64,000 bases of DNA from Balanoglossus misakiensis (GCA_040954595.2 CM082586.2:2609124-2673123), one strand, 5' to 3'; numbered from the stretch's first letter, positions 11,161 to 46,010 are shown. The notes: generated from the letters alone by a model not told the origin. Translations and numbers: made by a program.

Positions 11161-11170
11161 TTTTTCATGA

Positions 11171-11314: not shown

Positions 11315-12333
11315 GCAGGTGCTTTATGGGAAATGCGATAGCTTGTATTCTGGATTAGCAACTGATAGCAGGATGGGGTAACACAGAAAAATAAAGAAGC
11401 ACAGAGACTGTTCAGCAAGTACTTTATAACTTTAATGTTTGCAGCCCCCTGTGCTCTCCCTACCTACCTGAAATACATAAAATCAAATACTACCAAACAT
11501 TGACCAAAAGTTTAGTGTGTGGACGCACAGAGATTCTGTGGGCTAATACCCTGTGTTTGCAGAGAGTAAACACTGGCATAGCACTGGTGTCGAAACTTTT
11601 AGTGAGAACAAGACTGTACATGGTTTATTTGAGCGTGTGGATTAACACCTTGACACATATTTGACCCTTTTACAAATCGTAACATAGTGTTAATTAGTAT
11701 TTAAAGTTTTATGTAAACTAGGGTCATCGTCGTTTTTAGCGTTGTGCAACATGCAGATGTGTATGATCTTTTGTTCCTGGATCAAAGTGCCCCACCCTAA
11801 TTCTCTTGCTGGTGGAAACGACATCAAACGTATTTTAGCGAAGCTGCCGCTCTGAAGAAATTTGGAGTGATTTTCAACTAAGTGACCGTATATTTGACAA
11901 TAGCGCTGCAGCTAGTTGTAAGTAAAAGGCTACTCGATTTGATCACTATTCAATTCTCGGCCTACAAGCACTCAGTTGTTCACGGCCACAGAGAGTGAAC
12001 GTGCATGTATTTAGGCAACAAGTACTTGACGCCAAACCCACTGCCTGGTGGGTTGATTGTGTCCACAGACACCATACTTAGGGTTGATACAATTGTATAT
12101 CATTCGATATTGATTCTGTCATATACTGTTTTTGATTCCTCTGGTTGTATCCAAGGCAACCATATCACCAGCATTCTCGTCAGTTATGCGCTCTAGTTAG
12201 CTGTCGTGTATCCAATCTTTCTTTGAGTATGGCTTATAGTCTATTTATACTTCGACGATATCCGTGTATAAAACGTAACATATTGCTAATACTGCCTAAT
12301 ATTAGTTTTTCAATTGGCCTTCAGGTGACAACG

Positions 12334-13980
12334 ATGTTTTCCAAACCAAAGCAAAGTTACCTACATGCCGCATCTCGCTTTCCATTGACTGGGAAAACCT
12401 TGTGCGATTCCCTCGACCAATCAGCGGCCAAGTTCCCCGATCGAGAGGCATACGTTTTCGTCAAGAATTCCACCAAGAAACGGTTCACGTTCAGACAACT
12501 ACGAGAAGATGCTCTCCGTCTGGCCGCTGGTTTCGTTCACCTTGGTTTTGTGCCAGGGCAGCGTGTTGGCCTCTGGTCCGGCAATTGCTACGAGTGGGTT
12601 ACATCCCTTTACGCGATGGGTTACGCCAAATTGGTTTGCATTCGTATATGTCCTGATTACAAGGAAGAGTTTCTGGAATTCGTGATCAACAAAACCCAAA
12701 CCAGCGCTTTGATCCTCGCTTCCGGTGGTGATCAAGAGAGAGTCCTGCTGAATGTCTATCCTGAGGTAGCACAGCCAAGCCGAAGTATCACCTCGAAACT
12801 TCAGACAATTATTCACCTAGGGAATGAAGACAAGCCAGGCATGATACGATATGCAGACGTCCTGACGATGGGAGATAAGGAAGATTTCAAGCACGTCCAG
12901 GATTTGCGACAATCTGTTGGGCAAGATGATGAACTGGTAATGCAGTTCACGTCCGGCAGTACAGGGATGCCGAAGACAGTGGTCAAATCGCATAAATGCA
13001 TATTGGAGAATGTACATGCATTAGGTCGACACCTGTCGGAATTTACCAAGGGAGATGTTTGCTTTCTGTCGATGAGCTGCTTTGCCTATGCAAGCGGCGA
13101 TCGTTCCTCTTTTATGGGCGTCAGTCATGGTTTCAAAACGGTGATACCAGATCCCGAGTCTGGACCAGAATCGTGGGCAACTTTGATCTCAGAAGAAAAA
13201 GTCTCGGTCGTTTTTCTTCTGTTTAATTTCTTCTTGGAGTTTCTCAATCACGCCAAGGTCCAAGAGCCTGATTTGAGTTCTCTGAAGTACCTCATCACAG
13301 CAGGTAACTTCGTTCCCGCTGAAATTCTGGAAATGGGAAGGCGCATGATACACCCGAATATTTATACCATTTTGGGAAGTACAGAGCTGGGCCTCATGAC
13401 GATCAACCACAACAGCGAGAAGTTTGAAAAGGTTGGCTATCCCTTAGATCACAACGAGGTGAAAATAATCGACGACGACGGCCAAATCGTACCTCGGGGG
13501 ACCACAGGAGAGCTGTGCGTAAGATCACCGTACATGATGATAAGATATGAAGGTGATGATTTCAGAACGGAGTTAGCTAAGGATAAGTCCGGCTGGTTTC
13601 ACACCAACGATCTCTGTACCATGGATGAAGATGGATACCTTGACATCGTCGGGCGCAAGAGGGATATCATTATAAAAGGGGCATTCAATGTTTATCCCTT
13701 TTCTGTTGATCGTGTTCTCACCAGACACCCCAAAATCAAGCTGTCGCAGACGGTGGGAGTTCCCGATGAAAGATATGGAGAAGAAGTTTGTGCCTGCATT
13801 TGTCTGGAAGACGGAGAAGAAGCCAAGGTGGAGGAAATTGTGGAATTCGCAAGACCGCTTCTGCCACGTTTTTTCATGCCGACGTACATACTAATTTTCG
13901 ACGTCTTTCCTTCCAACCCAACCGGCAAAGTCATCCTAGCTGAACTCAAACGCATGGCCCGGGAAATGATCGGGAAGTGA
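12334..13980 (+). CDS. AMP-dependent acyl-CoA synthetase, ACSF2-like (548 aa from ATG 12334, single coding exon)
   Basis: P-loop QFTSGSTGMPK, LGSTE (YGxTE-like), GELCVRSP, GWFHTNDL, GRKRDIIIKGAFNV, GVPDERYGEEVCA and catalytic-Lys motif NPTGKV. A splice acceptor ttcag ends at 12324, just upstream of the ATG; ORF residues before it look intronic. Confidence 0.9.
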   Translation: MFSKPKQSYLHAASRFPLTGKTLCDSLDQSAAKFPDREAYVFVKNSTKKRFTFRQLREDALRLAAGFVHLGFVPGQRVGLWSGNCYEWVTSLYAMGYAKLVCIRICPDYKEEFLEFVINKTQTSALILASGGDQERVLLNVYPEVAQPSRSITSKLQTIIHLGNEDKPGMIRYADVLTMGDKEDFKHVQDLRQSVGQDDELVMQFTSGSTGMPKTVVKSHKCILENVHALGRHLSEFTKGDVCFLSMSCFAYASGDRSSFMGVSHGFKTVIPDPESGPESWATLISEEKVSVVFLLFNFFLEFLNHAKVQEPDLSSLKYLITAGNFVPAEILEMGRRMIHPNIYTILGSTELGLMTINHNSEKFEKVGYPLDHNEVKIIDDDGQIVPRGTTGELCVRSPYMMIRYEGDDFRTELAKDKSGWFHTNDLCTMDEDGYLDIVGRKRDIIIKGAFNVYPFSVDRVLTRHPKIKLSQTVGVPDERYGEEVCACICLEDGEEAKVEEIVEFARPLLPRFFMPTYILIFDVFPSNPTGKVILAELKRMAREMIGK

Positions 13981-14659: not shown

Positions 14660-17600
14660 TCACAGAATATCACATGATTTAGACACAGGCTTAGCTGACT
14701 GCTGGTGTTGTGGACGGCCAGGTGCTGCGCGCATTTGATTTGCCTGGGGGTGTGGTACTGGTTGCGCCATCGGCTGTTGAATTGGGGCTTGTGGACTTCT
14801 CATTTGGCTTGATTGTTGTTGGATACCTGGTACTGCAGGCTGCGATTGATGGTCTCCTCGAGACTGAGGTATCGATGGTTGCTGGGTCGGTTGCTGGCCA
14901 GCTGGCTGGGCTGTCCACGACGATTCTCCACTCGATGTCCCTTTGAAGAACATGAATCTTCCATCAGCCGTTGTTATGATGACCCTGTTGGTCTTGGGTA
15001 AAACGCAGACTGCGTCAATTGGCGAGTATCCAAAAACATTAGCTAGCTGCACCCCGCTTCTGGTACTCCATACCTTTACACTAATTTCTGATATAGCAGC
15101 AGTGAGGAGATAGAGGTCGTCACCCGTGATTTTCGCTGTGTGAACAACATTGGAGTGGCCTTTGAACACGTGGACCAGTCTCAGCGATGCCAAATCCCAC
15201 AATTTCGCTGTCTTGTCAGATGAGGCTGTTACAAAGAATTGGTCTCTGGAAGAAAGCTCTACCAGTGTAAACGTATCTTCACTGTTTTCTTCGTCCTTTT
15301 CATGGGCCTGGAACACTCTCGTAAACTTCCCTGATGCAACATCGCACATCTTCAGTTTACCGTCTTCCCATCCAGTCAAAAGGACTCGTTCATCCTTCGT
15401 CAGAGCCGCTACAGATATATAGTCATCTCCCGTCTGAGGTCTCAATTCAACATCGTATATTGTTGTAACTTCGGGCTTGAGTTTCATCAGGACAATATTA
15501 TTGGTACAGGGCAGCAGGAGCCTGTCGCCACTCAGGAAGAAGATGCCAGACACCCTTGAAGGAGGGTCATACTCCTTGAGGTACCATCTCTTGTTAATAT
15601 CAAAGACGTAGATGTCATCGACGTATCTATCACCACCCAATAAGAGAGCAGTTGTTGAATCACCAGATACCAGTAGACCATTACAGTAAGCGTCCATATT
15701 CTTGAAGTTTGGCTGCACTGGTTGCAGGGTTCTTGTGTTGAACTCAAACAGCTCGTATCCTCCACATGCAAACAGGCGTTGACCATCGGGTGTGCTGTCA
15801 AGACCACCGAGAGTGTGATCATAGAGACCGGACCATTCTTGTGTTACCATGTGCTTGCCTTTCTCAACATCATATAGAGATATGCTTTTTCCTGATTTAT
15901 TGATCAACGCAACACGTTTTTCTTGATCCAGGAGCTGAAATCTATGAACAATTCGACGAAGGTATGGATAATTCTCGGCGTATGTTTTACTGTCATCTTC
16001 GTCATATTCATCATTTTCGTCTTCACTATCATCATCACCACTCTCCTGATTGTCCTCGTCTCCTGATTTCTTCATCTCTAGCTGTGATCTGACGCTGTCA
16101 ACATTCCACACCTTGATGGTTCTGTCAGAAGACCCAGTGATGGCTAATACTGTTGGCGGCATGTTGACAAAACATGTGGCATTGATGGTTTGGTTGTGCG
16201 TGAGGCGACATAGGAGTTTACAAGACTCGTTGTCTGATGACGTTTCATCCTCCGGTTTCCATATAGCTGCACTGTGGCTGTCACTCCCCCACGTCACAAC
16301 CGTCTTCAAATTATCCGTGAAGAATATTTCAGCATCTGAGCCTTCGCCATGTGAATTAAACCACATTGATCGAACCACTTTCTTCTCTTCTATGTTGTAT
16401 ATGTTCACTTCGTCGGTGGATCCAGTATCTTTGTACATGACATTTTTGTCATCGTTGAGGAACTTCACACAGACAGCCGTACTGCACTGCTCCTCAGAAA
16501 GGTCGTTGAACTCACCTGAGTACACATCTAGGATACCATGCTGATAAAAATGCATAGCAACAAAGCGCCCATTTGCAGACACTGCCATCTTGCTACAGGG
16601 ACTCTGCTGCATATTTCGACGATCACGGACTTCTGTCAACATTTTCCCCGAATACAGGTCCCATATTTTGATACATGGGTCTTCTTCATCACCACACGTA
16701 ACGATGAGTGGTCGTCCATCTTGAGCACGTGCAATCACAAGGTCATTAATGAAATCTAATCAATACAAAATGGAAAACAGGAAACAATATATCACGCTGT
16801 ATCCTGGCAAAATTGAAGGTCACCAATTTCAAATATATTGAAATTGCTGTGGCATACATTCTTGCATACACTCCTCATAGGAGATTTTAATTTATTTTCT
16901 GAGAACCTTTTCCCGAGGCATATACTACAATAAGCACTACTCACCTTTATGCGCTTGAACACTGCATATTTGTCGCCCATTCTCCAGACTCCAGACCTTA
17001 AAGAAGAACTCTCTCACATATGTCGTACGTTCAACACGCTGGGAATACATCTCGCTGATGGCAAACTTTGAATCTGGTGTAAATCTCATCGGGATTTTTC
17101 CAAGTCCTGTGTGACCTTGGAGTTGCAGGAAGTGTTCACCAGTTTCAATATTCCACACGTGAATCTCGTCACTCTGGTCTTCTTCTTCTCCTGTTGGGGA
17201 GTCAATTATCTTATGTCATTCAACACATTCTACTGAAACACTTTGTACCATGTAAGACAAAATAATGTTTTTAACATGCTGCTCCAGTGATAAATAATAC
17301 AAGATAAAGGTTGTAAAACTAACGCCATGCTTTATATATAATGTAATCAGACTCACCTGCTGCATATGTGTAAGTTACTGCTAGCAGATTATCCGGTGTG
17401 ATCGCAATGCCACTGATTGGATGGCGGTGTTTGTCTTTAAGCGTATGGAGAATAGTACTGCTCTCGATTTCCCAAATGATGGCTGTCAGGTCTCTTGAGC
17501 CACTGACCAAGAATCGACCATCTGATGTCGTTGCTAGGGACAGGACAGCATCTGAATGCCCCATCAGCTGTGTCCTCAACAGCCCTCCAGGCGCAGGGAA

Positions 17601-20600
17601 ACACTGGTTGTAAGGTATGAGGGGAACATCTCTCACCGTTACACTCTCCGCATCTTTGACAAGTTGCTTGATGTGCGGCAATGTGTTGTCTTTCAGTCGC
17701 CCAACAACCTCAACTATGAGATTGTTTGGGTTTTCTCGAAGAGCTGACGCCCCTACACGAATGGTATCGCCCACGAGTCGCAGTTCTTCGTCTTCGTCGT
17801 ATTTCGCTTGTGCCATGGTGAAATCTTGCAAGACCTCTGCAAGGTTCATTGCTGTCAACTTAGTCAACAGGAACCGGAAGTTACACAGCGCATCTTTCTT
17901 GAGTGCATCAACGTTATCAGCATGGATTAGGTGATAAGGTAGTTGTTCCAACTTGCGTATGTTGTACCGATTTTCTCCACTTCCAAACTCCATTGGCTGA
18001 GGAGCAACTTTCCTGTCTTCTTCATCTTTCTGGCCTTTCCCGAATTTCTTCATCTGATCTTTGGTGTACATGAAGGGTTTCTTCTTTCCCCCACTCCAGA
18101 CGCCATTGAAATACTCTGCGCATAACTGGTGAAGCTTTTGGACAGTTTTCGGATCTTGTAAGTAGCGCTCTTTGGAGGCCTCAATAAACTGACGGTGGTA
18201 CCAATAAATGACTCGGGATCCTTCTGCCTCTCGCTCGACGAGGTAGTCGTTGATTTCAGCTCGAATTCGTGTCCACAGCAGAGGTGGTATTCTTCGAGTC
18301 GGTGGCAACCAGTAAGCATAGACATCTTGCAAGACGTCATCATCAAGGGAAAGTAAATCTTCCAGCTCAGCCTCAGCAATACCATTCTGAGATATGGTCA
18401 TGTACGCCAGCGCATGTGACACCAACATCTTCCCGTGATATTCTTCTAGTCTATCAAATATCAATGATATCATACCTTTCACGGATGGCTCAACTTTAAT
18501 GGCGCTTGTTGGTAAGTAAGACTGCCAACGTGATGCTTGGTCAAACAATAACTTCAGGAACAAGGGTAAACTGCACTGTTGAATTCCACTCGATATGATG
18601 GCCTTCTGTTCAGAATTTGTAGACCTCTTTTCGGAGTGCAACCACGAATCCATTATCTTTATACTGTCATCTACAGAGAGTTGCGTCACTTCCGTGTAGC
18701 GAGTTGTTTGAGGTGACAGGATTGACTGCAGTGTAGGCAGAATACCGTGTTCTTTAGGAAGAGTTGATATCACCAGGGCGGCATGCGGTGGTAAGAACCT
18801 GGGAATCCAACCCATTCTGTGAGCGCCCTCGCTGGCCGATAGTTGATCCAGAGAATCTAGGAAGATTATCAGGGGGCGCTCTTTGCTGGCATATCGAAAC
18901 ATCTGTGAAAACCATCGAACAACCTTGAAGTAGTCATCAGGTAGCTGCTGATTTCCATAACCATATATGGTCAATACCTGTTGGCAGACTGATTTCAGCA
19001 GCTGTCTAATACCAGTACTGGCCGGAGTTGTACCGAGGAACCTCAACACCACAGCAGAGTTGTTACGCCCAAACCATTCTGTAGCTGTTTGAAGTGCTGC
19101 TTTTGCCATGACAGACGTTTTACCACTTCCAGACTCGCCATAGATTACCATAGGAGATGCTGTTGCAGGGGTTCCTTTCATTCGCTCAGCCAAATATCCT
19201 TTGATTGTTGACAGGATATCTTCCCTTCCATGAAACGATTGGCATTTTACCTTGCAGAAAGTCAGATGCTGTAGGAGCTCTTCATACATGGGATGGTTAC
19301 TCACATGGTGTTTGTCTTTTTCTACTGCTTTGTCAATCATGCTGGTTATAGTGACTTCAAACGTCTTCAGAAAGTTGTCAAGGTACTTCTTATGCTGTGG
19401 AATATCCAGATCAATTCCCTTCTCGGACCAAGTATCCAACGTGGAAACGACTAAGTTAGGGGTCTTCAAGCATCCGGGTACCTTTGAATCCCTTAAGTCG
19501 TTCAGCAGAGTCTGGGCGTCTTCATCAACGCTATTCGTTTCCCAATTGATGTCTATGAAATTCTTCGCCTCTTTTTCATCTGCTCGCTTTTCCAGGTCAG
19601 CGAATTTCCTCACGAAGCAAACACAGTGATCCTGTTTGCCGCCAGCTTCCAGCACGCCATGTTGTACCTCATCATGAGTCACTGCAATATTCAAGAGATA
19701 TTCATGTTGAGTTATATAGCCTTCCATAACCTATGCAACAGTTACTACAGAAATCTGAGCGCCACAGTGTGAAAACGTATTATATCTGACGATTGCTATA
19801 CCTGATATTTTGAACTTCGACGCCTGTTTTTCATTAAATTTCCCCTTCTTTTGGCATATCGAAGAAGCCTCCCTAAGTTGCATCTGAATGGTTTCAAAGA
19901 TTTCCCACCACTTATTTCTGTCGGCCGCCATTTTGTCAGGATTGGCGTTGTCGTTGAAGTGAGTCAACTTTGAACTGATCGGCTGAAGTATGTAAACTGG
20001 CGGCACGGCGTTGTCATCCTTCTGGAACCACTCGTCCAACAAGTCGACTGCTTTGCCTTCTTCGCTCAATACCGCCCTCATCGCTTCTAATTCTGCCGCC
20101 GGTATATTTGGCGGGAAGGGCCGGTAGCCATACTTCTGACACAGAAATGTCTGAAAGATAGCAACAGAAACGTGGACAAATTTTGAGTACAGAAGAAAGA
20201 TCAACGTGTATCCAAATAGACAAACTAAAAATCTATCATCGTCAACACTCAGCCAGCAACAGTAAATTTGACATAGATAACACACACTGTAGCAGTCTGT
20301 GAACCAATGGAAAATCAGAAATGTATCAAAACACATCCCCAAATTTGGACATGGCGCGAAACTTCTCTCACGTGGCTCATTACACATCCGGCAAACTACT
20401 ATTCAATCAAAAATAGAATTCTTCCGACCTTGTATTACTCCACAAACATTATATCAGACCCGATAAATTAGGCAGAGGACGAGAGTGTAGATAGTGCAAC
20501 AGTGATAGCACCTTGGTATGGTCAGCTGAGTTCACATGTACAAAAAAGATGGCTTAGTTCATCCACAGAAATTTTAGGGGCTGACCTCACGTGACGACTC

Positions 20601-21425
20601 GCGCTTCTTTTACATGATTTTGTGAACCGTTCACAGTATCAATGGCGCCTCTAAAGTGCTGGACCAGCTCAAAGTTGGAAGAGGGGGTGTACGCTTTAAA
20701 AATATGAGACAAAACTCACCACAAAATTTGGACCAGTCGAAAGCTTCTGACACGCTGCGATTTCATTCATGCAAAGTGCTGACGTCATGTGATCGTCCGT
20801 AGCTTCATCGCGTACTCCCCATCTCATGTCCACCACTTGAAATTCCAAGCCATGTTTCGATTTGCAGTAGTCTTTCAGTTTGGGATAGATTTTTTCCATC
20901 AAGGCATTGCGTTCCACTGAGGTATCTGTACAAAAACGATTCGGTAAAAAATATGAAAATAACAATGTGATTTTAGGGTCGAGGTTTTACCATGTATAAA
21001 TGTGCGAGTCAGCAGGATCATGAAAAGAGGGAGTTGGTAGAGATTCTACCACGATGATTAACACTTGTGTGTTGCCAGGCACTGATTTCATCCCTCTTGC
21101 CTAATACCTGCATTTGAATCTTTATATGTACATAGTGACACAGATAGGTGCGTGTATATTTGATCATGGCACAGATCGGATCGGAGCTGAAAACGTGTCA
21201 TGGACTGTATCGAATGAGGGTCAATTATGCATATATTATATAAGTTTCAACGGCGACTAGGCATTGACTCGAGTCATGCGGAAATCACAGTAAATGAACG
21301 GAATACAAAACAGACATACCTGTAAACGTTGAACTTGTAAAGATTCGAACAACTCTTGATCTCAGTGGAGGCAGAGCTACCCCTAATTTGCCCAGGAGCA
21401 ACTGATTTTCAACTTCGGTTGCCAT
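14660..21425 (-). CDS. NACHT and WD40 repeat protein (NWD1/NWD2-like STAND NTPase), paralog A; 6 coding exons: 21425-21320, 20925-20720, 20150-19802, 19681-17357, 17190-16945, 16755-14660
   Basis: Exon 1 MATEVENQLLLGKLGVALPPLRSRVVRIFTSSTFT. Exon 2 carries DUF4062-type motifs ERNALM...VDMRWGV...LCMNEI. Walker A GESGSGKT, Walker B IFLDSLD, RRIPPLLW and WYHRQF helical motifs, multiple GH...WD/WN repeats. Ends KSCDIL*. All junctions are GT-AG and phase-compatible. Confidence 0.93.
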
Positions 21426-23211
21426 GGTTCCACCTGTACTGTGTTAAGTCACCACAGACTACAACCTGTTCGACAGACAGACAAACGTTTGCTCAATACG
21501 AGTCATATGAAGGCGATGTGTGGTTATGTCGGAAAAGCCAGTTCAAGTCAGACTGGGGTTCAAGGTAAACCACTGCAAGGCTTTGCATATAAAGTATCAC
21601 AGATGTCCCAGTTGACAGTCTATATTCTACTAGTGCCGACGCACATTGAATGGTTACGTCTCGGTCAAGTCAGCACTCATAACTCTTGAACCCTTGACGT
21701 TTATTGCAATAAATAGGCCGAGATGTCTTACATAAACCTCAAGATCGCGTATATCTCATCATCCCACTTCACTTGATCATTGTATTCATGCGCGTAGTTA
21801 AGGTCACACATATCACCACAGTAAAATCAGGACGACAAAAGACTCACCTATACATTATTCAGACTCTCTCCGTACTGGGTGCTGTATGTAGCCTTCCGAG
21901 GCGTGCAGCTGTATAGACACGGCAGAGAGGGAGAACCCTGACACACACTCCTTCCGAAGGCAAACTCTGACATGAAATGCGCCGTGTGTGACGATGACAC
22001 GCCCCTTTCTGACATTACCGTGACGACCAAACATAACATGAACACATTCAGGTTTAACAACGCAGACGTCTCCATATTCTACCTAAACCAGGTCACGTTC
22101 CCCTAAGCGTGTCACTGATATGCTGAGCTCGCTTAAATAATTTCCATTTCAAGTCAAGCATAGAGTTAAACAAATAATAATTCGCCAGCATTAATAAATA
22201 AATGCTCCTCGACAAGACCAAAATCGGCATTTATACTGAGATATGTTCAATTTTTGGATGTGAACTTTAGTTCCGTTCAGTGCAATTGCCACGTGTAAGT
22301 CAACAATACCAATGGACTAATTACGTAATACCTCTAGACATTGACACCACACTGTTGACAGTAGATTGTTCAGCAAGGTGTGATATATTTGTTGGATCGA
22401 TGTCACAGATCAATACTCAAATGTGCACGTGTTTTATTATGTAACGGCGAAATAATGTATAAAACGACAGAATATAACGGCACTGACAGACAGACAGACA
22501 CAAAAACATACAGACGCAACTGAACAGTACGTGTCATGCAAGCGTATGCTACTTTTCAGTGTGTTTTTTTTGCATTATGAATATAATACACCGAATCTTT
22601 GGCAACATATCGAATCGAATTCCTTTGGTTCCCCCTAACTAACGGGCGAATCTCGACATCTCAAAAATAACGTATGCATAACGGGTTTTAAAAACCATAA
22701 TTTTATTTCAGCTGATAACTTACAGTATCTGTAACACATAGAATACCGTGTCATAAATGTAGATATATTAGCACAGCGATGTATGATGTTATCTTTCATA
22801 TTTATGTCAATTTCAACATTTAATGTAGAGGTCGTGTATGTTGTACGTGTTCGTATATGGCAGATACGCTTCTTGCCATAGCAACAGACATTGTTCACCT
22901 CAGGAAGGTCATCTTACCCACGTCACTCACGTGACACTGACTTAAAAGGCGACCATTTAAACATAGAAGAATACCTTGGTACTGCCTTGGGTCGGTGTTG
23001 AATTCAGGTAACACCACCATGGTGACAGACTTGCAATAGGAAATGTCGACTGTCCATCAAGATTAGCTGTTTTAATCGCTGGCCACCATAATATCAGTGA
23101 AATCGGAAATTCTCATCGGTTAGTGAGGGAGGTGGTGAGCTCAGCTTGCGTTACACACACACTGCTGTTTGTCTTCAGACCGTGCGTTTGATTTTGTAAG
23201 GTGAATGAATA
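21426..23211. promoter_or_regulatory. Shared divergent promoter / 5'UTR interval of the two NWD-like genes
   Basis: The two start codons face away from each other ~1.8 kb apart. Splice acceptors just upstream of each ATG imply non-coding first exons inside this interval. Exact TSSs are not visible. Confidence 0.6.
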
Positions 23212-26200
23212 ATGGCTGGTGACCTGAAAAACCAACTCCTCTTGGGGAAAATCGGAGCTTCACTCCCGCCACTACGATCCAGAGTGGTTCGTATATTTAC
23301 AAGTTCGACATTTACAGGTGGGTGATAAACTTGATTTTTGTAGCACGTGATTTCGAGTTTTAGCGCATTGGGTATGAGAGGTTTTCTCTTAAATCCCCCT
23401 CCCCCCACGTGCAATGTACAAGTTGTGAACCTAAGTATATATGAAGACAAAGCGAAGCGCTTCGCAATGCCTTGGCCTTGCAACGCCCGTAACCATAGTG
23501 ACAACCTAACGAATTAAACAGTGACGATGCAAACATGGCTGCCTAGGCTGGCAGACTAGATGATATATTCACTTGTTCTTTTACGCCAATAAGCTTCACC
23601 CTAACCCGTTTAAAATTTTCGTGGTTCATTTTCGTATATGTGGTCGTTCATTTGAGACGGTGTGACATGTTTCAACCTGTAATGTGCGCGTCAAACAGCT
23701 ATACAAGGCCGTCTGACGTACGTATATCAAGTCGCCCAACAAGCCAGCCGGGTTTGCCAATCGATTGTTCACTTCAAAGAGTCGATTGTAAAGCTTTCAT
23801 TTTAATACACAAACATGACTCAAAATTTCTCTATACCTCTGATATTCAAGCATATGCAAGCTCACCAAAACGCGCGTCATCGGCGCTTGTTATAAGTCCA
23901 TAGTTTAAATATTGGCATACAATTTTGAATTTCGAATAACGTATGCACACGGGGTTTTAACTTTAAAATCCCAAATTTTATTTCAACTGAGAACTTACTC
24001 ATGTGAGATTGGCTTGCTGTGCACCAAATACGGGACAAGAGGTGCACCCGTTGCTATGGTGTACGCGTTGCTACCGTCAACGAACTGCCAAGACATTTGT
24101 TTGAAGTTGTCAGAAAACAATCATTGGGAACAAGACCTGGGGCTTATACAAACCTCCTGTCGTTCGCAAACCGCCTACGCATCCTTTGTTCAGTGCACAA
24201 AAAGCAAAATAGGTCAACTTAAGTTTTCTTTCGTTTTTATCTCATTGAATAGTTCATAGCTGTGGGAAAATAGTGTCAGGTATGTGGGGTGTGGGCGTTA
24301 CACCTTTCTACAGTTGCCGCGACCAGTGCAAAGTTACTTAGACCAAAGGAATGTGTACGCTAAACCTATCCTACTTTATACTCGGATATCATTATGATCC
24401 CACGCAAGACACGAGAGAAAATTTTGACAATCCTTATATTTGAAAATACGAGAAAAATTTGTTTCGTCGAGAAATGATCATTTTCTATTAAAATCGTCTG
24501 AACTTGGTGACACACTATACTACTTATGGAATAAAATTGATAACTCTTGTGTATAGTGTACTTAATCTGTTTCCTTTTTCTTCTTTCTTTCACTGAGACC
24601 CCTTTCTGCAAGAAATAACTTCCAAACAATTTTGAGGGGGTTTATCATCATGGTAAAACCTCGACCTACAATCACATTGTTATTTTCATATTTTTTACCG
24701 AATCGTGTTTGTACAGATACCTCAGTGGAACGCAATGCCTTGATGGAAAAAATCTATCCCAAACTGAAAGACTACTGCAAATCGAAACATGGCTTGGAAT
24801 TTCAAGTGGTGGACATGAGATGGGGAGTGCGCGATGAAGCTACGGACGATCACATGACGTCACAACTCTGCATGAATGAAATCGCAGCGTGTCAGAAGTT
24901 GTCGACTGGTCCAAATTTCGTGGTAAGTGCTCATATTTTGATTGTTTCCCAGGTCAAATATGCGAAGATTTGTCGAAGTAAACTGACATGATGTGGGCAA
25001 GAAATCTAACAGACGAACAGAGACAGAAAAAAAACGATCTGATTGACAGACGGACAGGTCGACAGACAGACAGATAACCACGAAATTTGAACCACTTGGG
25101 AAACTTCTAAAAATTCGCTCCAGAGCATGATTTGTGACGTCATAAACTTATTTTCGTTGCAGACATTCCTCTGTCAGAAGTATGGTTACCGTCCATTCCC
25201 GCCAAAGATCCCAGCGGCGGAGTTTGAAGCCATGAGACAAGTCTTAGTGGCAAACAAGCAACCAGTCGACCTCCTGGACGAATGGTTCCAAAGAGACAAC
25301 AACGCCGTCCCTCCAATTTACATACTCCAGCCGATCAGCTCCAGGCTGACCTACTTCAAAGACAACACCAATCCGGACAAGATGACCGCCGATCGCAACA
25401 GATGGTGGGAGATCTTTGAAACTCTGCAGAAGCAACTGAGAGACGCCGCAACGATATGCCAGAAGGAGAGAAAGATGTCGGAAAAACAGGCAGCGAAGTT
25501 TAAAATATCAGGTAATTATCGCGATTTAGAAGACCCGCTAAAAATTGTCTGGCACATTGTTGAATCTCAATTCTGGCCACTTGTCAGGGTTTTCCCACCT
25601 CAATCAAGTGTCACTTGTCTCACTCCATGCATGATGATCAGGATAATGATAATCATGATTATATATTTTTCAGTTACCCATGATGAAGTTGCCCATGGTA
25701 TCCTAGATGCTCCTGGAAACAAAGAAGACCACTGTGTCTGCTTTGTTCGCAAATTCAACGACTTGACTCAACAGGCCGATCACAAGGAAGCGAAGAATTT
25801 CGTCGACATCGATTGGAGCACAAGTGATGTCGACCATGCGGCGCAAGCACTTCTAACAGATCTACGAGATAGGAGGCTACCTTCGTGCCTCAAAAAATCC
25901 AACTTGATTGTTTCAAACCTGAACAACTGGTCAGAAAAAGGTGTAGATCTTGGTATCCCAGAACACAAGCAGTACCTGGAGAATTTCCTGCAGAAGTTCC
26001 ATGATACGATGGTTATGCTGATCGATCGCGCTGTCGAGAGAGACAAGGACAATGTAAGCAACGAACCCTTGCTTGAAGAAATCCTACAACATCTTACATT
26101 CTGCAAGCTGAAGTGCACAACATTTCATGGGAGAAATGATCTTCTGTCCGAAGTGAGAGGTTATATACAAGGGAGGTTCAACGGAAGCCAGGATACATCA

Positions 26201-29200
26201 GCTCCAATGATCATACATGGTGAATCTGGTAGTGGTAAAACGTCTGTCATGGCCAAAGCTGTACAACTGGCTGCAACAGAATGGTTTGGAAAAAGCAACG
26301 CTGTGGTTGTGCTGAGATTCCTGGGAACAACTCCTGCAAGTACAGGCGTACGACAACTACTGAGATCTGTGTGTAAACAGATTCTCACCATTTATGGTTA
26401 TGCCGATACCGATCTACCCGACGACTACTTCAAAGTGGTGCGGTGGTTCGCACAAGTCCTGAGGTATGCTACAAGGGCAAAGCCTCTTGTTATCTTCCTG
26501 GACTCACTCGATCAGCTCTCGCCTGCTGAGAGTGCTCACAGGCTGTCTTGGCTACCAAGGCAACTACCGCCGTACGCAGCTATTGTGGTTTCAACCCTCC
26601 CAAAGGAACACAACATTCTTGCCACTTTGCAGTACCTGTTGACACCTGGGATAGCAAAGTACACTGAAGTTCAGAGGCTGTCTGTTGAAGACAGTATGCA
26701 GATCATGAACTCATGGTTACGTGCAGAAAGAAGAACAGTTAATCCTGAACAGACACGCCTTGTGGCTGATGGAGTTCAAAAATGCAGTCTACCACTATTC
26801 CTGAAGTTGCTGTTTGATCAGGCCTACCGTTGGCAATCGTACATGCCAACATCAGAGATCAAAATAGAGGCATCTGTCAAAGGGATGATATCAGTGATAT
26901 TCGATCAACTGGAAGAATATCACGGAAAGATGTTAGTATCCCGAGCACTTGGCTACATGACGATCTCCGAGAATGGCATAGCAGAGGCTGAGCTTGAAGA
27001 TATTCTATCTCTCGATGATGATGTCCTTCAGGAAGTGTATGCATACTGGTTGCCGCCTACGAGAAGAATCCCTCCTCTGCTGTGGACTCGAATCAGAGCT
27101 GAAATCAATGACTACCTAGTGGAGAGGGAAGCTGAAGGGGCCAGAGTGATATATTGGTATCATCGACAATTCATCGAAGCTGCTAGGGAGAGGTATCTCA
27201 ATGACGAGCAAAGGGTGAAGAATATGCATAGATTATGCGCCGAGTACTTCATCGGTACATGGAGTGGGGGTAAGAAGAAACCCTGCACGTACACAAAGCA
27301 ACAGATGGAGAAATTCGGTAAGCCGCAGAATGACCAAGAAGACAGGAAGGTAGCTCCTCAGCCACTGGAGTTCAGCGGCGGACAGAAAAGGTTCAACATC
27401 AGGAAACTGGAACAGCTTCCCTTCCATGAAATCAACACCTGTGATTTAGATCACTTGAAAGAACACACACTGTGTTCCATGCCGTTCCTCCTGACGAAGC
27501 TAAGAGGGATGGGCATTGGAGAAGTGCTGCAGGATTTTGGACTGGCGCTGGCCAAGTATGAAGATGACAGCGAATTGAGGGTCTTGAGTGACACTCTTCG
27601 AGGTGGAGCATCAGCGCTGAGAGAAAACCCATTCAACTTGATCGTGGAGATTATCGGCAGACTGAAGAACTCGGTCGGGAAATTCATCCAGAAGTTGGTA
27701 GCAGAAGCAGAAAAGGCGACCACTACAACAGTCCCGTTAATACCCTACAATCAGTGTTTCCCTGCACCTGGTGGCCTGCTGCGGTCTCACCTACTCGGCC
27801 ACACAGACAGCGTCACGTGTCTGACATCCACTAAAAATGGGCGCTTTCTCGTATCCGGTTCTAAGGATCTTACAGCTATAGTTTGGGACTTGGAGAGCAG
27901 CACTATATTGCATAAGCTGTCCGGGCACCACACAAAGCCGATCAGTGAAATTGTGATAACACCAGACAACATCCTGGCATTAACATACAACTTTACAGCA
28001 GGTGAGATTAACAAGATTAATGTCAAAAAGAGTAACAGTATTACCGACAATGATACTAGTAATCTTAGACTATATCATTCATGATTTTGCCATTTGCATG
28101 GTAATGAATGCTGCTTTTTCTGTTCATCAATTCCAGAAGAGGCCAGTGACATGAGTCCTGAAATCAATGTGTGGAACATTGAGACAGGGGATTTGTTCAT
28201 CAAGCTTAATGGACACAGCGGTGACGGCGATGTACCAATGCGTGTGTCGTCAGATTCAAAATTTGTCGTCAGCACTATGAAAGTAGCGTTCCAGGAAGAC
28301 CGCTGGAGTGGGAAAGAATACAAGTACTTTATGAAGGCATGGAGTTTGGAAAATGGTAGAGAGTTATTCCGGGGTGTAGAAGCACACAAAGGTATGGTAG
28401 TGTATGCTGTGTATAAACAAAAAACAAAAAAACAATACATGTAATAAATATCATATGCAAGTTTGATCATTGGTATATCATGACTAAAAAGTGCATGAAA
28501 TTGCATCAGACTCTCATTGCATTTTACCCTTTTTTCTTTATGTACATTTAGGTGAAATAAATGATATAGTGCCTGCAAGAGCAGCCAATGGTCGCCATCT
28601 TATTGTGACATGTGGAGATAAGTCTGATCCTGCAATTAAGATATGGGATATGTTTACATGCCAACTACTGCGTGAAGTCTTGGATCGCAGAAAACGTTAC
28701 AACCACCCCAGCCTTGACCTCGAAGTATCATCGAATGGCCGCTATGTTGCGTTCCAGTTCTACCGTCACTCCATATTAGATGTCCACACGTGTGCTATAC
28801 TTGACCTCACAGATGAAGAGTCCACTGGCACATGTCTGATGAGTTTCTTAACAGACAAGGAGGTTATGTTCAAGAATGACAACGACTCGCTCAAGATATA
28901 CAACTTTGAAGAGAAGAAACTGGTGTCGACTCTCAAACTCGGCAGAGGAACTGACGTGTTCCAGTTTTCCATCACTGATGATTGCAAGACAATGATAACC
29001 ATACCCGAGAACTCTGAGAAGGCCTTGCTATGGCAGGCAAAGAACGACGTCGTAACTGGTGAGGTGGAGTTCAAAGTCATGGCTGATCTGCCCCACACTG
29101 GACTGGTGAATTCTGTCACCATTGTCGATGTACAACCATCCTTGTTTGCAGCCACCAGTTCATCAGATAATACTGTCAGGATTTGGAACATAGCAAACGT

Positions 29201-30557
29201 CAAGCAGTCGCTGAAACAGGAACTGGAAAACAAGAGGCAGGAGAACCGAGGGGATAAGGATGATGAAGCCAAGAAGCCATTCGGGTCCAGACACCCATAT
29301 CTCCGAAATCTTGTGCATAGATCAGCGATACTTGAAGATGAAAAACGCATCGCTATCATCAACAGTCTCGGCACCAAGATTTCACTCTATGATGTCACCG
29401 AAGGCAAGCTGATTGGTACCCAGAAGTGGGTTTACAAACACACCAAAGTTGTCGGTATTGATTCCACACAAGATGGAAAGAGGCTTCATGCCCTTGGCGA
29501 TAATTACCTGATGGAGTATGATACTAACACGATGGAGCCTTTGTACGAGAAACCTAAGAAGTTAGATGTTTATGGATATGGTCTCAAGGTTTCCCAGAAT
29601 GGGTCGACAAGTGCCATAATCGGTGGTAATGATTCAAGGAAGCAGTTCCTTGAAAATATCTATGTTTATGATATAGACAATCAATGGTATATGGGTGAAT
29701 ATGAACGCTCAACAATGCCCGTCGCCCTGTTCCTACTCAGTGGCGAAAGAATGCTGCTTGTCAGCTCCAATAACTTGACCATGCTGACACTGCAGTCAGC
29801 AGATCTGATCTATGACCAGAAGTTCGTGCCCGGTGACAACAGACAAGGCGATTACATCATCTGTGCTGCGGTCACAAAGAACGAACGCATGGTACTTACT
29901 GGGTGGAAAGATGGCCTGATCAGAATATTCGACGTGAAATCTGGTGCAGTCATGCGAAACTTCCAAGCTCACAGAGGACCTGAAGACAACTATGGAGTCG
30001 ACGACTACATCATCACTGAGATCAACCTATCCTCTCTTGATCAGTTCTTCGTCACAGGATCCAGTGACAAGACAGCAAGGATGTGGGACCTTGCATCGCT
30101 CAGGCCTGTACACGTTTTCCAAGGTCACGTTGACACGGTGATGATGGCGAGAATAACAGGTGACAACCAGTTTGTTCTAACAGTTGCCAGAAACGACCTG
30201 AATGTGAAAGTCTTCAGCGCAAGCAGTGGTCAACAACTCACCAATATTGTGGGGTATGCTCCCATTGACGACATCTGCATCATCCCTCGGTCGAACAAGC
30301 TCCTGATAACAACAGCAGACAGCAGAGTCATGTTCTTCAAGGTGAACCATTACATCGCCAAGAAACTCCACAAACGCCAGTCCGCGGCTCTCCCGCCTGC
30401 AAAGCAAGCAGCTCCACCAGGAAAAGGTCCTCAGCCACAACAACAAACTCCACGCCAACAGCAACATCCGGGACAACCACCTCATCCCAACCAACAGGCT
30501 TACAACGGACCTCCCGAACAAGACCAGAAGAAGTCGTCAGCTTGTGCCATCATTTGA
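23212..30557 (+). CDS. NACHT and WD40 repeat protein (NWD1/NWD2-like STAND NTPase), paralog B; 6 coding exons: 23212-23317, 24717-24922, 25163-25511, 25674-28001, 28137-28391, 28552-30557
   Basis: Exon 1 MAGDLKNQLLLGKIGASLPPLRSRVVRIFTSSTFT. Same exon structure as paralog A (exons 1-3 are 106, 206 and 349 nt in both). Walker A GESGSGKT, Walker B IFLDSLD, WD40 repeats. Ends KKSSACAII*. Confidence 0.93.
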
Positions 30558-32249
30558 GGTATTAGTAACCGATGCAAAGTACCTTGAGAACTGCATTTAG
30601 GCCCCGGATTTAGGCAAACTTCCGCGTCCAACGAAGCACGTTGTTTAGAATAAACAAGCAGCGCCCTCGCTGGTATAAGCAGAAGGACCCATACGTATAA
30701 AATTCACGATTGTTTCGGCCTAAGTCAGTATTACCTATGAATGAGAGCTCAGTTGATACATATATACGATACAACCATGAGCCAGATGTTTTTTTTTCAT
30801 GATATCTAGTTACTTAGAAATGTTGACGGGTCCCTGTATATTTTGAACTACAGCTTCTAGGCATGCCTTGACCATCAAACAACTTATCAAGATTACTGTT
30901 ACATGTATTAACAAGAAGACAATACCGCCACATAAAGCAAGATGCATGTTCCGACCATATGATATTTATTTAGTAGAGTTTACTATTAAAAGGACTAAGA
31001 ATTGTTTACTCGTTTTCATTGAAGTTGGATATCAAGTTTAAGTCTGTTTAAGGTAAACCCAAAGTAAGGAAATGGATATCCTTTTCTCTTCATGTTTGTC
31101 TTTTAAGACAACTTTAATACTTAAGACAAAAGAATGCACACATACTATCATACTATAAGCATCAATTATACACATTTATCACAGAACATTATAGGAAAAT
31201 AGTATTGAATGATTGTTTGATATCGATAACCAAGATATGGCCCAGGAGTTGCAAACAGCCAATTTCATTTAGAATTGTATGATGATGGGTACTAAATACT
31301 CGAGTCAAACTAATGATTATGAAATAAAATAGTTGACTGAAGAAACATGCCTATGTGTGTCTTGAATTGGACCAAGCTAGTATGTATGTCTGTCTGTATG
31401 TATGTCATCTTGTCAGAAGATATGCACTCCAAACATGAAACATGTTGCTGAATGAACATTTGATAACAAATGATTTCTCTGTTTTATTCAACCACAAAGA
31501 AGAACACAACAAAGATGAACATATTTCCATTATTTCTGACCTGGCATTGAGGTGTTTAACGTTTTGGAAGGAATTTGGTAACATTGTGGACTCAGACTTC
31601 AAAAGCTGCAGTACCACATTACAAAAGTTTGACTATAAAAACCAGAATATAACAGCTATTCAACGGAACTATAGAGATAATCTCGGTTACCCAGACTCCT
31701 CTGCTTCTTCCGTTGCCCTCCAGAAAGAGGGTCTGGGGTAATACCATAGAAAAATCTCCGGGCAAAGATGGCCGACTCGAGGTAAAAGCAATGCATGATG
31801 ATTGCAGCCTCAAACATAAATAAAACATGCTGAGAAGTGCTTGACCTGCTGAAACTGTGGCATTATATATATAAATATAAAAGGCTGCGACATAAAGAGT
31901 AACATGGTACCGCCAAAATGCTGACAGGTAACATTTGATATGCTTTTTTTCATAGACTGTAAATGTTGTGGTTCTTGATGCATGTGAAAGGGATCAACAG
32001 AAAAATAGACTTCATGTACTGCTTTTCAAAACAAAACTACTACACACTACATGCAACAATAAATTATATTTTTTTATAAATTCAGAATCTATATCTAAAA
32101 ATCTATGGCAAGAATGAAAATACATTGCACATTTTAAGTACACATTTACTACAAATCAGACCAAAGCAATACTTTCCCCTTAGTACAACATAGTTGGCTT
32201 TCCCTAAACAACAGCGTCTAGCTTTCCCTGAGACATTTCCCGTGCCATT

Positions 32250-35200
32250 TCACCTTGTGCCTTTTGCTTTTTTCAGCAAAGCTTCCTGTAATTGCACTGT
32301 CTTTATTTCTGGCACAACCATCTCCAAGGCGATGTCCAGCATTGTGTAGATGAAATGCCTGAAACCACAAACAAAAAAATCATGTTTATGATGTCTGCAA
32401 GATGACAAATTTGGCTTTGTCAGTCTTTGCCTTGGTCATTTTTCAAAGTTCATGACATATTTATGCATGTGTACCACCCCAAGCTGTGGATATCATCTGT
32501 CATACCTGTTTAGTCTCGGGTACTGCAAGGATTCCATTGCATCCCACAGAGCACCTCGGTAATCCTCTTCGCCAACTGCAGTCTTCAGTAAAGCTGTGAA
32601 TGACATAAGAGGACACACGTCACAAATGAATTGACTGAGGATTTCACTCAAAACTACGTGACATGGTTAAACACCAAACTCCACTATAGGGGAGCAAATT
32701 CTTTTCACTCACTGGGAAAGAAATCCACCAAGCACTGGTGAGCGTGCCTCTTTGTTTGTTGTTTCTCCTTGTCAGTTCTTGGGCCGTACACTTTCTTGTC
32801 CCATACAGCTTCTCGCAACTTGAATAAATAGTAGGCCCACTTGTCTGGTGTTGTCAGGTCACCTATCTCAAGCATCAACCAACTGAAAAGAAAACAATAT
32901 CAATTCAGAAAGGGAAGGTGGGCAGTCCACACTTTGAGTGCGTCAAATGCAAAATTTGCAAAACATTTGTAACGATCATTGGCCTTTAAATCACTCTGGT
33001 GTGAGAACTGTCAAACCTCTTACCTGTTGAATAGTTTTCCGGTGACCACTGTCAGAATTTGTTGCACTTGATCACTTACTAACCACTCATTCTCGCAGTG
33101 TTGGAAAGTCTCACAGAGTATGTGCAGGGTGAGGGTTGCCAAGGCGATCTCGTCAGTTGACAGACCTAAACCAACCAACGAATAGTAAAGATGGAGTGAT
33201 TAGATCACTTTCATCGCGATTGAGGGTAATAATTCCACCATATTGACCCGACATTTCCCATTGATTACATCATTGTCACCCCAGACTGAGGGTAATAATG
33301 CAAACCATATTGACCTACCTTTCTCCTTTGTTGCATCAGTCATATCACAGCCGTCGCCCTGTGGTCTGGGCCCTAAAACCTTCGGAGCACTATCAACTTG
33401 GTCTCTACTGAGTTGCCATGGCTGCCAGCCATTAGATGTGTAGTCAATTTCACACTGGTACATTTCCATCATGCCTTCGACTGGGGACCGGTAAAGCTGT
33501 CAAATTGACATAAAAAATGCATTTTGATCTCGATTAACATTGCTGAATAGAATTCTATATACCCTTGCAGCTGGGAAGGCCAGATATGTCTTTCACCACC
33601 ATGGTTTGGTCCAAATCAATTGTTTTCTATGGTAAACTTTAAGTCAGGCCTTTATAGGGGGAACAACGCCTAGTTTACATGTAGATGAAAAAGTCAAAAC
33701 AAACCTCAGGGAAAGCAAACATTCGCCTGTTAGTGGCTTCTTGCTCAGCCTCCGCTGCATCGCTCATGGAAAGGTCTTCTTCAGCTTTGCTCGGTTCCGG
33801 GCCCTCGCCAACGGAGACGTTGGGAAAAGCTGTTTTGAGGGTGTCGATGAATCCACTCATACTTCTCACAAACATCTGGGGAGACCAAATGGGAGACAAA
33901 GTTACTTTGAATGCATAGGGAATGTAGTTAGGCTTTTCTTTGGCTCTTGATCTGGGGAAGTCATTTTAAGTTCACGACACAACACCACAAATGGTGACTG
34001 GCTCTATACCCTTAAACACACACTGACAATGCGTAACGTCAATTTTAATAAAGTGTCAGACTAACCTTATCAAATCTGGGAACCATATTCGGCGCTTTTT
34101 TGACATACGCAATGTGCGGATCTGTGCCGTAGGCCAGAAATTCCTTCAATTCACTACTATTGTGGATGTCTTTCTTTGACAGCAGGCCCTGGTACATGAT
34201 GAAGTTAGAAAAAAACAAAAACAATCTGACATTGCAGTGTTATGGTTACAATTCCAAGAAACATTTTTAAATTCTGCCTGGCCAAACCAAACGTTCATTG
34301 TTTCAGACAATTTCCTGCGTAAAACAGAAATAGCCTGCATGACCTCAAATGACATTAAGCATTTAATCTTTTAACAGGAAACAGACATGCACGGTTCACA
34401 TGCCTTCACATTGAAAACTATGGGTTAACAGATCATAAATGATAACACAGTAATGAATACACAACTCAAATGGTCATGTACCTGTAAATAAGCTTCAAGA
34501 AAGTGTCTTCTGTGTTCTACATAGTCTTTATTCATATTTCCTACTGGTAGTGTAAACAGTCTATTTGGCTCTTTCAGATCTGTGTGCAGAAAGAACATGG
34601 AGTTACCCAGTATCAAAACATTTTCTTCTTCCAGAAGTACACTCAAGCATGTAAAACATGTGTGTTACCTCTCTCCCCTATATTTCACATGAGACTGTAC
34701 CAAATCGCACAAGTAGCTGGGCCAGTCCACAAGACAACAGGAGAGTTACTTCACTTATTTTAATCCATACCTTTCATATTTTTCTTGAGTTGTGTGTGAT
34801 CTTCTAGCCTACTGTGCAAATTGAGGAATTCTCTGTATCTTCGTTTCACTTCATGCATTTCCAGCTCGGTGGGATTTTCCGGGTCTACTGTTGAATACTT
34901 TGAGAGTAAAAAAGGGAAGTGTGCAGTTACTATGATGAACAGATAACACAGTTACCACAAATCACCCATATTTGGATTCTGAGCTATTGTACAATGAATA
35001 CCGGTTATGGAATTTATATATAAAAACAAGCAGGAATATTCACCTGAATGACATATAGAGTATATTCCTTTGTGCTTCTATATTCTGTAGCTACTGTAGT
35101 TTCTGGGATATGCAGTTCATGATATATCCTATCTTGCAATGTTTCTGGGTTTGGAATTTTCTTTCTGCCCAACACAGATGATAGAAGGCTTGGCATTTGC

Positions 35201-36699: not shown

Positions 36700-37217
36700 A
36701 TTATCGGTTCTCGGTGGGGCTACGTTCCATTCTACAAGTAGTGTTGGTTTACGGGGAAAAAATAATTTCAGATATTATCTAACCTTGCCTGTATACAAGA
36801 CACAAATAAAATATCCAGGACATTGAGCGAACTGTATCTAGTGACTAGTCACGGGATGCCAAAAATAATATGAAGTTAGATGGTCTCAAAAAGTGATGAC
36901 CTTTCAACTCCATGTACGTAAGGACATGGCATTGGAATCAAAATCTGTTTATGTTAATTTCGCGAATACTGTGTACCTTGTATGTACCCATGGGGTAACG
37001 TTGACGACAATGTTTCGTTTATTCTTATACTGCAGGTAATAAAAGATAAATAGTGATCATGTCTTATCACCAACAATGCGTTCCTGTTCCCCATGACATC
37101 ACGTAGGCGGGGCCAGGATATCAGAAAAAAAGTCTGAATCCAATTCGGATTCTAATACATGTATTGGGATCTGCTGTACTGTGCATTGAGCTAAAGCCTA
37201 AAGTGTTGATGATCGTG

Positions 37218-44608: not shown

Positions 44609-46010
<1,402 letters not shown>

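What the first reader, a model, noticed from the sequence alone, without database searches (positions are those of the whole stretch)
14660..30557. Head-to-head pair of TIR-like/NACHT/WD40 STAND genes: candidate paired immune or signalling receptor system in an animal
Seen: two intact paralogs with identical 6-exon structure, transcribed divergently with ATGs ~1.8 kb apart. Both keep Walker A (GESGSGKT) and Walker B (IFLDSLD). Conservation is graded: N-terminal domain near-identical, NACHT/helical region highly similar, WD40 region much more diverged. Established: effector-NACHT-WD40 is the architecture of fungal HET-E/NWD allorecognition receptors and of bacterial antiviral STANDs, and divergently linked NLR pairs (RPS4/RRS1, RGA4/RGA5, Pik) act together in plants. 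Vertebrate NWD1 and NWD2 are not arranged as such a pair. Inference: a co-regulated pair with a shared effector module and different WD40 sensor specificities, possibly hetero-oligomerising.
Basis: partly seen in the sequence, partly recalled or inferred. Interest (0 to 1): 0.8.

Follow-up and report, generated by a model that had tools for sequence, protein, structure and literature searches.

The report
Old receptor twins sharing one exon
Two intact, long-diverged copies of an NWD-type signalling gene sit back to back in what is likely an acorn worm and differ everywhere except one near-identical exon, likely kept the same by repeated DNA copying between them, so both proteins would carry a matching enzyme-like signalling face on different sensor tails.

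Summary
Observation confirmed: two intact six-exon genes (1775 and 1749 aa), divergent, ATGs 1.8 kb apart, Walker A/B intact. They are NWD1/NWD2-like DUF4062-NACHT-WD40 genes, already annotated in relatives. The duplication is old: each copy has its own ortholog in Ptychodera and Glandiceps, both types lying on one contig there (orientation not seen). The faster WD40 divergence is ordinary for the family, and neither copy looks like a sensor-only or helper-only partner, so the plant-style pair is not supported. Likely membrane-tethered APAF1-like switches with an interchangeable effector face. Immunity, co-expression and heteromers are untested. The scan had not noted this on other DNA.

The parts
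14660..21425 (-). Gene A, NWD1/2-like DUF4062-NACHT-helical-WD40, six coding exons, 1775 aa
   Evidence: ortholog of Ptychodera P0003 and Glandiceps P0123/P0139
23212..30557 (+). Gene B, paralog, six coding exons, 1749 aa
   Evidence: ortholog of Ptychodera P0001 and Glandiceps P0002
21426..23211 (.). 1786-nt interval between the two ATGs; start sites unknown; no similarity between the two upstream regions
20699..20994 (-). Conversion tract, copy A: last 69 nt of intron 1, all of exon 2, start of intron 2
   Evidence: 296 nt at 94.6% to copy B
24649..24939 (+). Conversion tract, copy B
   Evidence: 7 differences in the 206-nt exon
19668..19670 (-). Gene A Glu225 in SVTxxE, counterpart of TEP1 catalytic E1008 (inferred from motif and predicted helix)
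25685..25687 (+). Gene B Glu225 in SVTxxE
19116..19139 (-). Gene A Walker A
18846..18866 (-). Gene A Walker B
26219..26242 (+). Gene B Walker A
26492..26512 (+). Gene B Walker B
14663..14674 (-). Gene A C-terminal CaaX-like motif (CDIL) after a Q/P-rich tail
30543..30554 (+). Gene B C-terminal CaaX motif (CAII) after a Q/P-rich tail

Best explanation
These are two intact, old, inverted paralogs of the NWD1/NWD2 family whose second exon is near-identical, likely through recurrent gene conversion, and each likely works as a complete membrane-tethered, APAF1-like switch rather than as one half of a sensor/helper pair. Shown: gene structure, orthology, the tract, the motifs. Predicted: the TIR-like fold and the prenylation. 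Inferred by analogy with APAF1 and TEP1: a cue binds the WD40 propellers, the NACHT domain oligomerises, and the clustered TIR-like domains signal, likely by cleaving NAD+ through Glu225. Conversion likely persists in exon 2 because it is among the family's most constrained segments, so exchange there costs little while the rest has diverged too far to recombine; a side effect is that the two proteins' alphaA-BB loop-alphaB faces would stay interchangeable.
For: Both frames intact with dN 0.32 against saturated dS. A groups with Ptychodera P0003 and B with P0001 plus Glandiceps P0002 at 100/100; with Glandiceps A-types added, bootstrap 95-100. Exon 2: pS 0.09 against 0.73 overall; 4 of 63 same-residue codons differ against 551 of 935 elsewhere, P about 1e-17; 69 nt of intron 1 share the identity while introns 2-5 score as shuffles; a control stretch with 47 of 49 residues identical has 31 of 147 nt different, against 7 of 206 in exon 2. 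Informative sites: exon 2 groups by species 3:0, residues 105-1440 by orthology 178:8. Exon-2 residues have mean conservation 0.78 over 64 family members, against 0.54 and 0.47 downstream. DUF4062 at 28.9 bits, cut-off 24.7, on the ortholog's N-terminus; only PDB sequence match is TEP1 11GZ, E 1e-9; model pLDDT 89, best structural matches TIR domains, Z about 10. T222 and E225 invariant in 64 of 64. CaaX in 33 of 120 homologs against 2.3 expected. Both copies symmetric in every motif checked.
Against: Purified full-length human NWD1 and NWD2 did not cleave NAD+ or NADP+ (10.64898/2026.05.01.722283). TEP1 R908, whose loss lowers activity, is Thr35 here; R976 is Lys110; R954 is Met82 (my count). 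A roughly 95-residue insertion separates betaC from the glutamate helix, so the E1008-E225 match rests on motif and model, not on the HMMER alignment. No RNA run was available. Exon 1 residues 19-35 are as conserved (0.79) yet not converted (9 of 51 nt differ), so constraint alone does not explain the tract limits. In Ptychodera and Glandiceps only proteins were seen, and their within-species identity (1 of 69 differences each) may partly be ancestral retention, since the unlinked P0004 differs from them by only 2-4.
Confidence: 0.5

Rival explanations
1. A co-regulated, co-assembling pair: conversion of exon 2 is kept by selection because the two TIR-like domains must fit each other in a mixed oligomer, giving one effector platform with two WD40 specificities, possibly in immunity.
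For: The tract covers alphaA, betaB, BB loop and alphaB, the elements that form the AB dimer interface and autoinhibitory loop in bacterial DUF4062. Within-species A-B distance in exon 2 is 1 of 69 in 3 of 3 species that have both types, between-species ortholog distance 3-6. Both types are kept on one contig with accession numbers 1 apart (Ptychodera) and 4 apart (Glandiceps). ATGs are 1.8 kb apart.
Against: Orientation in relatives not seen. No clear B ortholog in Saccoglossus, whose paralogs differ by 4-15 residues in exon 2. Glandiceps has a second A-type copy on another contig and its linked A model is truncated. Neighbouring paralogs also occur in two starfish. WD40 divergence is ordinary. 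A probable third paralog was laid at 90% or more on part of exon 2, so exchange may not be exclusive to the pair.
Confidence: 0.25
2. Non-enzymatic scaffolds for sensory or neuronal signalling, like C. elegans QUI-1 and mouse Nwd1; the TIR-like domain serves for assembly only and conversion is a neutral by-product of inverted proximity.
For: QUI-1 acts in ASH/ADL sensory neurons (PMC8871372); Nwd1 organises purinosomes in neural progenitors (PMC7186558); human NWD1/2 inactive in vitro; TEP1's active-site arginines only partly kept; no sign of accelerated sensor evolution.
Against: E225 and T222 are invariant in 64 of 64 sequences from cnidarians to insects; full-length STAND proteins are expected to be autoinhibited, so in vitro inactivity is weak evidence (established for APAF1; discussed).
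Confidence: 0.22
3. The exon-2 identity is an assembly or polishing artefact, or one gene is a pseudogene.
For: The only runs found may be the window's own sample; no listed contig spans a whole tract.
Against: Seven exon differences and three intron differences remain; contigs join A's exon-2 3' half to unique intron 2 with 0-1 differences; the same near-identity appears in independent Ptychodera and Glandiceps annotations; both frames are open over 5 kb.
Confidence: 0.03

Closest known systems
Animal NWD1/NWD2 family (human NWD1, NWD2; C. elegans QUI-1; Drosophila CG10185)
   Same: DUF4062-NACHT-winged helix-WD40 order; top homologs carry these names.
   Different: An ambulacrarian subfamily with local duplicates, a conserved CaaX tail and an exon-2 conversion tract; about 36-46% identity to non-hemichordate members over exon 4.
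Human TEP1 DUF4062 NADase and bacterial Swarozyc/Evangelion (10.64898/2026.05.01.722283; 10.64898/2026.06.25.731849)
   Same: Homologous TIR-like domain (E 1e-9 to 11GZ); SVTxxE glutamate kept.
   Different: No TROVE/vWA; large helical insertion after betaC; R908 and R954 equivalents not kept; activity unknown.
APAF1
   Same: Effector-NTPase-helical-WD40 layout; the family profile matches APAF1 over positions 794-1599 at 1e-57.
   Different: TIR-like instead of CARD; NACHT instead of NB-ARC; lipid-anchor motif.
Plant head-to-head NLR pairs (RPS4/RRS1, RGA4/RGA5, Pik, Fom-1/Prv)
   Same: Divergent orientation with 1-2 kb between start codons; TIR-fold N-terminus.
   Different: No integrated domain, no loss of motifs in either partner, WD40 not LRR; co-function untested.
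Fungal HNWD genes (het-d, het-e)
   Same: NACHT plus WD40; concerted evolution occurs.
   Different: In HNWD the WD sensor repeats are homogenised and diversified (PMC1805685 abstract); here the effector exon is homogenised and WD repeats show no internal similarity.
Zebrafish NLR-B30.2 family (PMC4852459)
   Same: Domain-restricted gene conversion in NACHT receptors; its authors link domain matching to functional multimers.
   Different: Hundreds of genes and NACHT/B30.2 tracts there; two genes and one effector exon here.

Membership tests
NWD1/NWD2 family | N-terminal DUF4062 | tested here: met
   PF13271 above cut-off on ortholog P0003 residues 27-116, 95% identical to A there; a profile of 53 mostly non-hemichordate rows scores A and B at 480 bits. 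Single exons alone gave no Pfam hit.
NWD1/NWD2 family | NACHT with Walker A/B, NWD1-type winged helix, WD40 repeats | tested here: met
DUF4062 TIR-like NADases | TIR-like fold | tested here: met
   Model of ortholog N-terminus, pLDDT 89; VIA-align top rows TIR domains, Z 10.4, rmsd 3.5, 146 aligned. Foldseek gave no match at E 0.001.
DUF4062 TIR-like NADases | Catalytic glutamate (TEP1 E1008) | tested here: met
   SVTxxE, E225 in A and B, invariant in 64 of 64; equivalence by motif and helix position.
DUF4062 TIR-like NADases | TEP1 phosphate-site arginines R908, R954, R976 | tested here: not met
   Thr35, Met82, Lys110; whether they define the whole family is unknown.
DUF4062 TIR-like NADases | NAD+ hydrolysis | not testable with these tools
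   Human NWD1/2 negative in vitro.
Plant-type sensor/helper NLR pair | Head-to-head linkage | tested here: met
Plant-type sensor/helper NLR pair | Linkage and orientation conserved in relatives | tested here: inconclusive
   Same contig and near accession numbers in two genera; orientation not visible.
Plant-type sensor/helper NLR pair | Division of labour: integrated domain or lost signalling motifs in one partner | tested here: not met
   Colinear alignment, same motifs; definition from PMC10883720 passages.
Plant-type sensor/helper NLR pair | Co-expression and physical interaction | not testable with these tools
   No RNA holder listed.
Fungal HNWD allorecognition receptors | Near-identical WD repeats under concerted evolution | tested here: not met
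   No off-diagonal self hit at E 10 in either WD region; no coding tandem repeat.
Fungal HNWD allorecognition receptors | Positive selection on WD surface residues | tested here: inconclusive
   Region-level dN 0.42-0.46 with saturated dS; site-level test not possible without allele sets.
CaaX-prenylated proteins | Cys four from the end, aliphatic a2, conserved | tested here: met
   33 of 120 end in C-x-x-x, 32 with aliphatic or Thr a2; other offsets 0-5. Modification itself untested; Asp at a1 in A is atypical (recalled).
Bacterial antiviral STAND (Avs) | Match to PADLOC defence profiles | tested here: not met
   4 proteins scanned, two weak unrelated hits.

The most novel reading that the evidence does not exclude
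An animal STAND receptor pair in which selection has maintained gene conversion of exactly the TIR-like assembly exon since before two acorn-worm families split, so that two different WD40 sensors co-assemble at a membrane into one prenylated, NAD+-cleaving oligomer: the first paired NADase receptors in an animal, and a route to the missing activation mechanism of human NWD1/NWD2.
Probability: 0.15. Interest if true: 0.85.

Novelty: new variant of a known kind. Interest (0 to 1): 0.5.

Why it matters
DUF4062 was shown in a 2026 preprint to be a TIR-like NADase, yet human NWD1 and NWD2 were silent in that assay and their triggers are unknown. This locus offers a natural experiment: two sensors with one shared effector exon, an invariant candidate catalytic glutamate and a lipid-anchor motif that my two literature searches did not find described for the family. 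Membrane tethering would suggest why soluble full-length protein can look inactive, and the converted exon points at the surface to test. If the tract is only neutral conversion, the locus is a tidy but ordinary case of concerted evolution in an inverted duplicate.

Tried and rejected
No whole genome is held, so copy number in this genome was not counted. No RNA holder listed. Complex prediction of the two Ptychodera N-terminal domains gave no verdict, score 0.00, alignments unused. Foldseek found nothing at E 0.001; TEP1 11GZ did not appear in either fold list. Pfam on single exons 2 and 3 found no DUF4062. Run X3 laid nothing. The 'WD40 diversifying' idea was rejected by ortholog controls; starfish pairs had lower ratios (0.7-1.4) and lophotrochozoan pairs 1.25-1.97, so A-B sits above those but inside the hemichordate and arthropod range. 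Allele check: 23 coding sites from the 40 of 236 variant rows shown gave 15 synonymous and 8 nonsynonymous sites (7 codons), too partial to test selection. No shared element between the two upstream regions. Gene order in relatives could not be read. Earlier scan notes: none held all words, none by place or sequence; the two listed notes did not move my reading. A date for the family split was sought and not found.

Full report
Observation. I rebuilt both genes from the DNA. Gene A (minus, 21425-14660) and gene B (plus, 23212-30557) each have six coding exons, all introns GT-AG with the same phases, and open frames of 1775 and 1749 aa. 1786 nt separate the ATGs. NACHT, NWD1-type winged helix and WD40 profiles pass their cut-offs in both, and both Walker motifs are intact. 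No further copy lies in the window. DNA contigs of one sample cover the region and show alleles. No RNA holder was listed, so expression is open.

Identity. The best homologs are hemichordate proteins named NWD1- or NWD2-like, 82% over exon 4 for Ptychodera flava, so the animal is likely an acorn worm near Ptychodera (inference). A tree of residues 105-1300, 18 rows, joins A with P0003 and B with P0001 and Glandiceps P0002 at 100/100. A second tree, 22 rows, residues 105-860, adds Glandiceps P0123/P0139 to the A side. Ptychodera and Glandiceps belong to different families, so the duplication predates that split. The Ptychodera pair has consecutive accessions on one contig, the Glandiceps pair accessions four apart on one contig. 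That suggests adjacency but shows no orientation. Both Ptychodera models and the linked Glandiceps A model end early. Saccoglossus has at least three paralogs on one scaffold but no clear B ortholog; Patiria has three and Acanthaster two near-consecutive models. Local duplication is usual in this subfamily.

The conservation gradient is ordinary. The WD/core distance ratio is 2.20 for A-B, 1.53-2.27 for six hemichordate ortholog pairs, 2.01-2.71 for the 21 of 150 arthropod pairs with similar core identity, 1.25-1.97 for 53 of 66 lophotrochozoan pairs and 0.7-1.4 for three starfish pairs. The arthropod and lophotrochozoan sets are presumed orthologs, picked by N-terminus and name. WD repeats show no internal similarity, unlike het-d/het-e (PMC1805685, abstract).

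What is unusual is exon 2. A 296-nt tract is 94.6% identical between the genes, while exon 4 is 67.6%. It includes 69 nt of intron 1 with three differences; introns 2-5 score like shuffles. Synonymous difference is 0.09 in exon 2 and 0.65-0.86 in every other region; 4 of 63 against 551 of 935 same-residue codons differ. Equally conserved protein stretches elsewhere are not alike in DNA: 31 of 147 and 9 of 51 nt differ, against 7 of 206. A and B share derived residues at 46, 47 and 60 that neither Ptychodera ortholog has; informative sites group by species 3:0 in exon 2 and by orthology 178:8 over residues 105-1440. Gene conversion is the simple reading. Since flanking exons are saturated, exchange must have continued through much of the pair's history (inference). 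In all three species with both types the paralogs differ by 1 of 69 residues here, orthologs by 3-6. For Ptychodera and Glandiceps this is protein only and partly compatible with ancestral retention. Saccoglossus paralogs are not homogenised. Loose contig ends suggest a third paralog in this genome with the ancestral residues at 46-48, laid at 90% or more on the rest of exon 2 for an unknown length, so exchange may reach beyond the pair.

The N-terminal domain. The ortholog's N-terminus passes the DUF4062 cut-off and its only PDB sequence match is TEP1 (11GZ). The model (pLDDT 89, pTM 0.85) matches TIR domains best, with nucleoside deoxyribosyltransferases close behind; Foldseek was blank. Osinski et al. 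(10.64898/2026.05.01.722283; I read parts 1-3 of 7, the Discussion and passages; supplements and figures not seen, and their Figure S1B alignment bears on the residue mapping) show that DUF4062 is a TIR-like NADase in bacteria and in TEP1, needing E1008, and that full-length human NWD1, NWD2 and NPHP3 were inactive. Counting on the 11GZ alignment, one offset places R908, R954, R976 and E1008, the last in SVTxxE. A and B have this motif with E225, invariant in 64 of 64 rows, after an insertion of about 95 residues. R908, R954 and R976 correspond to T35, M82 and K110. Exon 2 encodes alphaA, betaB, the BB loop and alphaB, which form the dimer interface and block the active site in the bacterial structure. 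A second preprint (10.64898/2026.06.25.731849, passages) reports the same acidic motif.

The tail. Both proteins end in a CaaX-like motif after a Q/P-rich stretch. So do 33 of 120 homologs, against 2.3 expected; 15 of 21 subfamily models have it, and the six without end early or run on. A further 13 of 120 begin with a myristoylation-like motif, only one having both, which hints that membrane tethering is general in the family. Prenylation rules are recalled, not tested. Searches for NWD2 with CaaX (one listing, unrelated by title) and NWD1 with prenylation (none) found no description.

Mechanism. By analogy with APAF1, as proposed for this family: a cue binds the propellers, NACHT oligomerises at a membrane, TIR-like domains cluster and signal, likely by NAD+ cleavage. 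Each gene has every part, so I favour two complete switches whose effector faces are interchangeable (0.5) over a selected, obligate pair (0.25) or non-enzymatic neuronal scaffolds (0.22). Tested family members act in neurons: QUI-1 (PMC8871372, passages) and Nwd1 (PMC7186558, passages); PMC4852459 (passages) notes no reported immune role for NWD1 and gives a precedent for domain-restricted conversion in NLRs. Plant pairs divide labour (PMC10883720, passages), which is not seen here.

Novelty. The family and the orthologs are annotated. Searches listed no paper on this subfamily, the tract or the tail (judged from listings except where read above; the library lacks most subscription journals). 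Earlier scan notes held nothing on it. Verdict: new variant of a known kind, interest 0.5.

Noticed in passing
window 21-11161: Tandem array of an 87-bp unit, about 128 copies, 98% matches, GC 31%; satellite DNA, its long ORFs and Pfam hits are artefacts of the repeat.
   Followed up: no
window 12136-13980 (+): Single long ORF, AMP-binding enzyme (PF00501, PF13193), convergent with gene A; apparently intronless.
   Followed up: no
window about 32200-36774 (-): PXA-domain gene, probably a sorting nexin of the SNX13/19/25 type (name recalled).
   Followed up: no
window about 37200-38000 (+), 44980-45931 (+), 54782-55270 (+): Exons resembling N6AMT1/HEMK2 (recalled), ribosomal protein L11 (PF00281) and an ABRA/Costars-like protein (recalled).
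   Followed up: no
window 56357-63834 (+): Run of CUB-domain exons with internal duplications at 86-93% identity, including an 1888-nt segment at 88%.
   Followed up: no
loose contig ends at window 24755 (X2) and 25157 (X1): Probable third NWD paralog elsewhere in this genome, with ancestral residues at positions 46-48.
   Followed up: partly
proteins P0008, P0025, P0028, P0030, P0031, P0033, P0034, P0037, P0047, P0054, P0057, P0070, P0115: NWD homologs with N-terminal myristoylation-like motifs, nearly exclusive with CaaX tails: two alternative lipid anchors in one family.
   Followed up: partly
window 20952-20992: One X1 contig skips 39 nt inside A's intron-1 part of the tract; possibly an allele that has lost part of it.
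   Followed up: no
window 22666-22723 and 23935-23998: Short repeat (78% over 64 nt) shared by the intergenic interval and B's intron 1.
   Followed up: no
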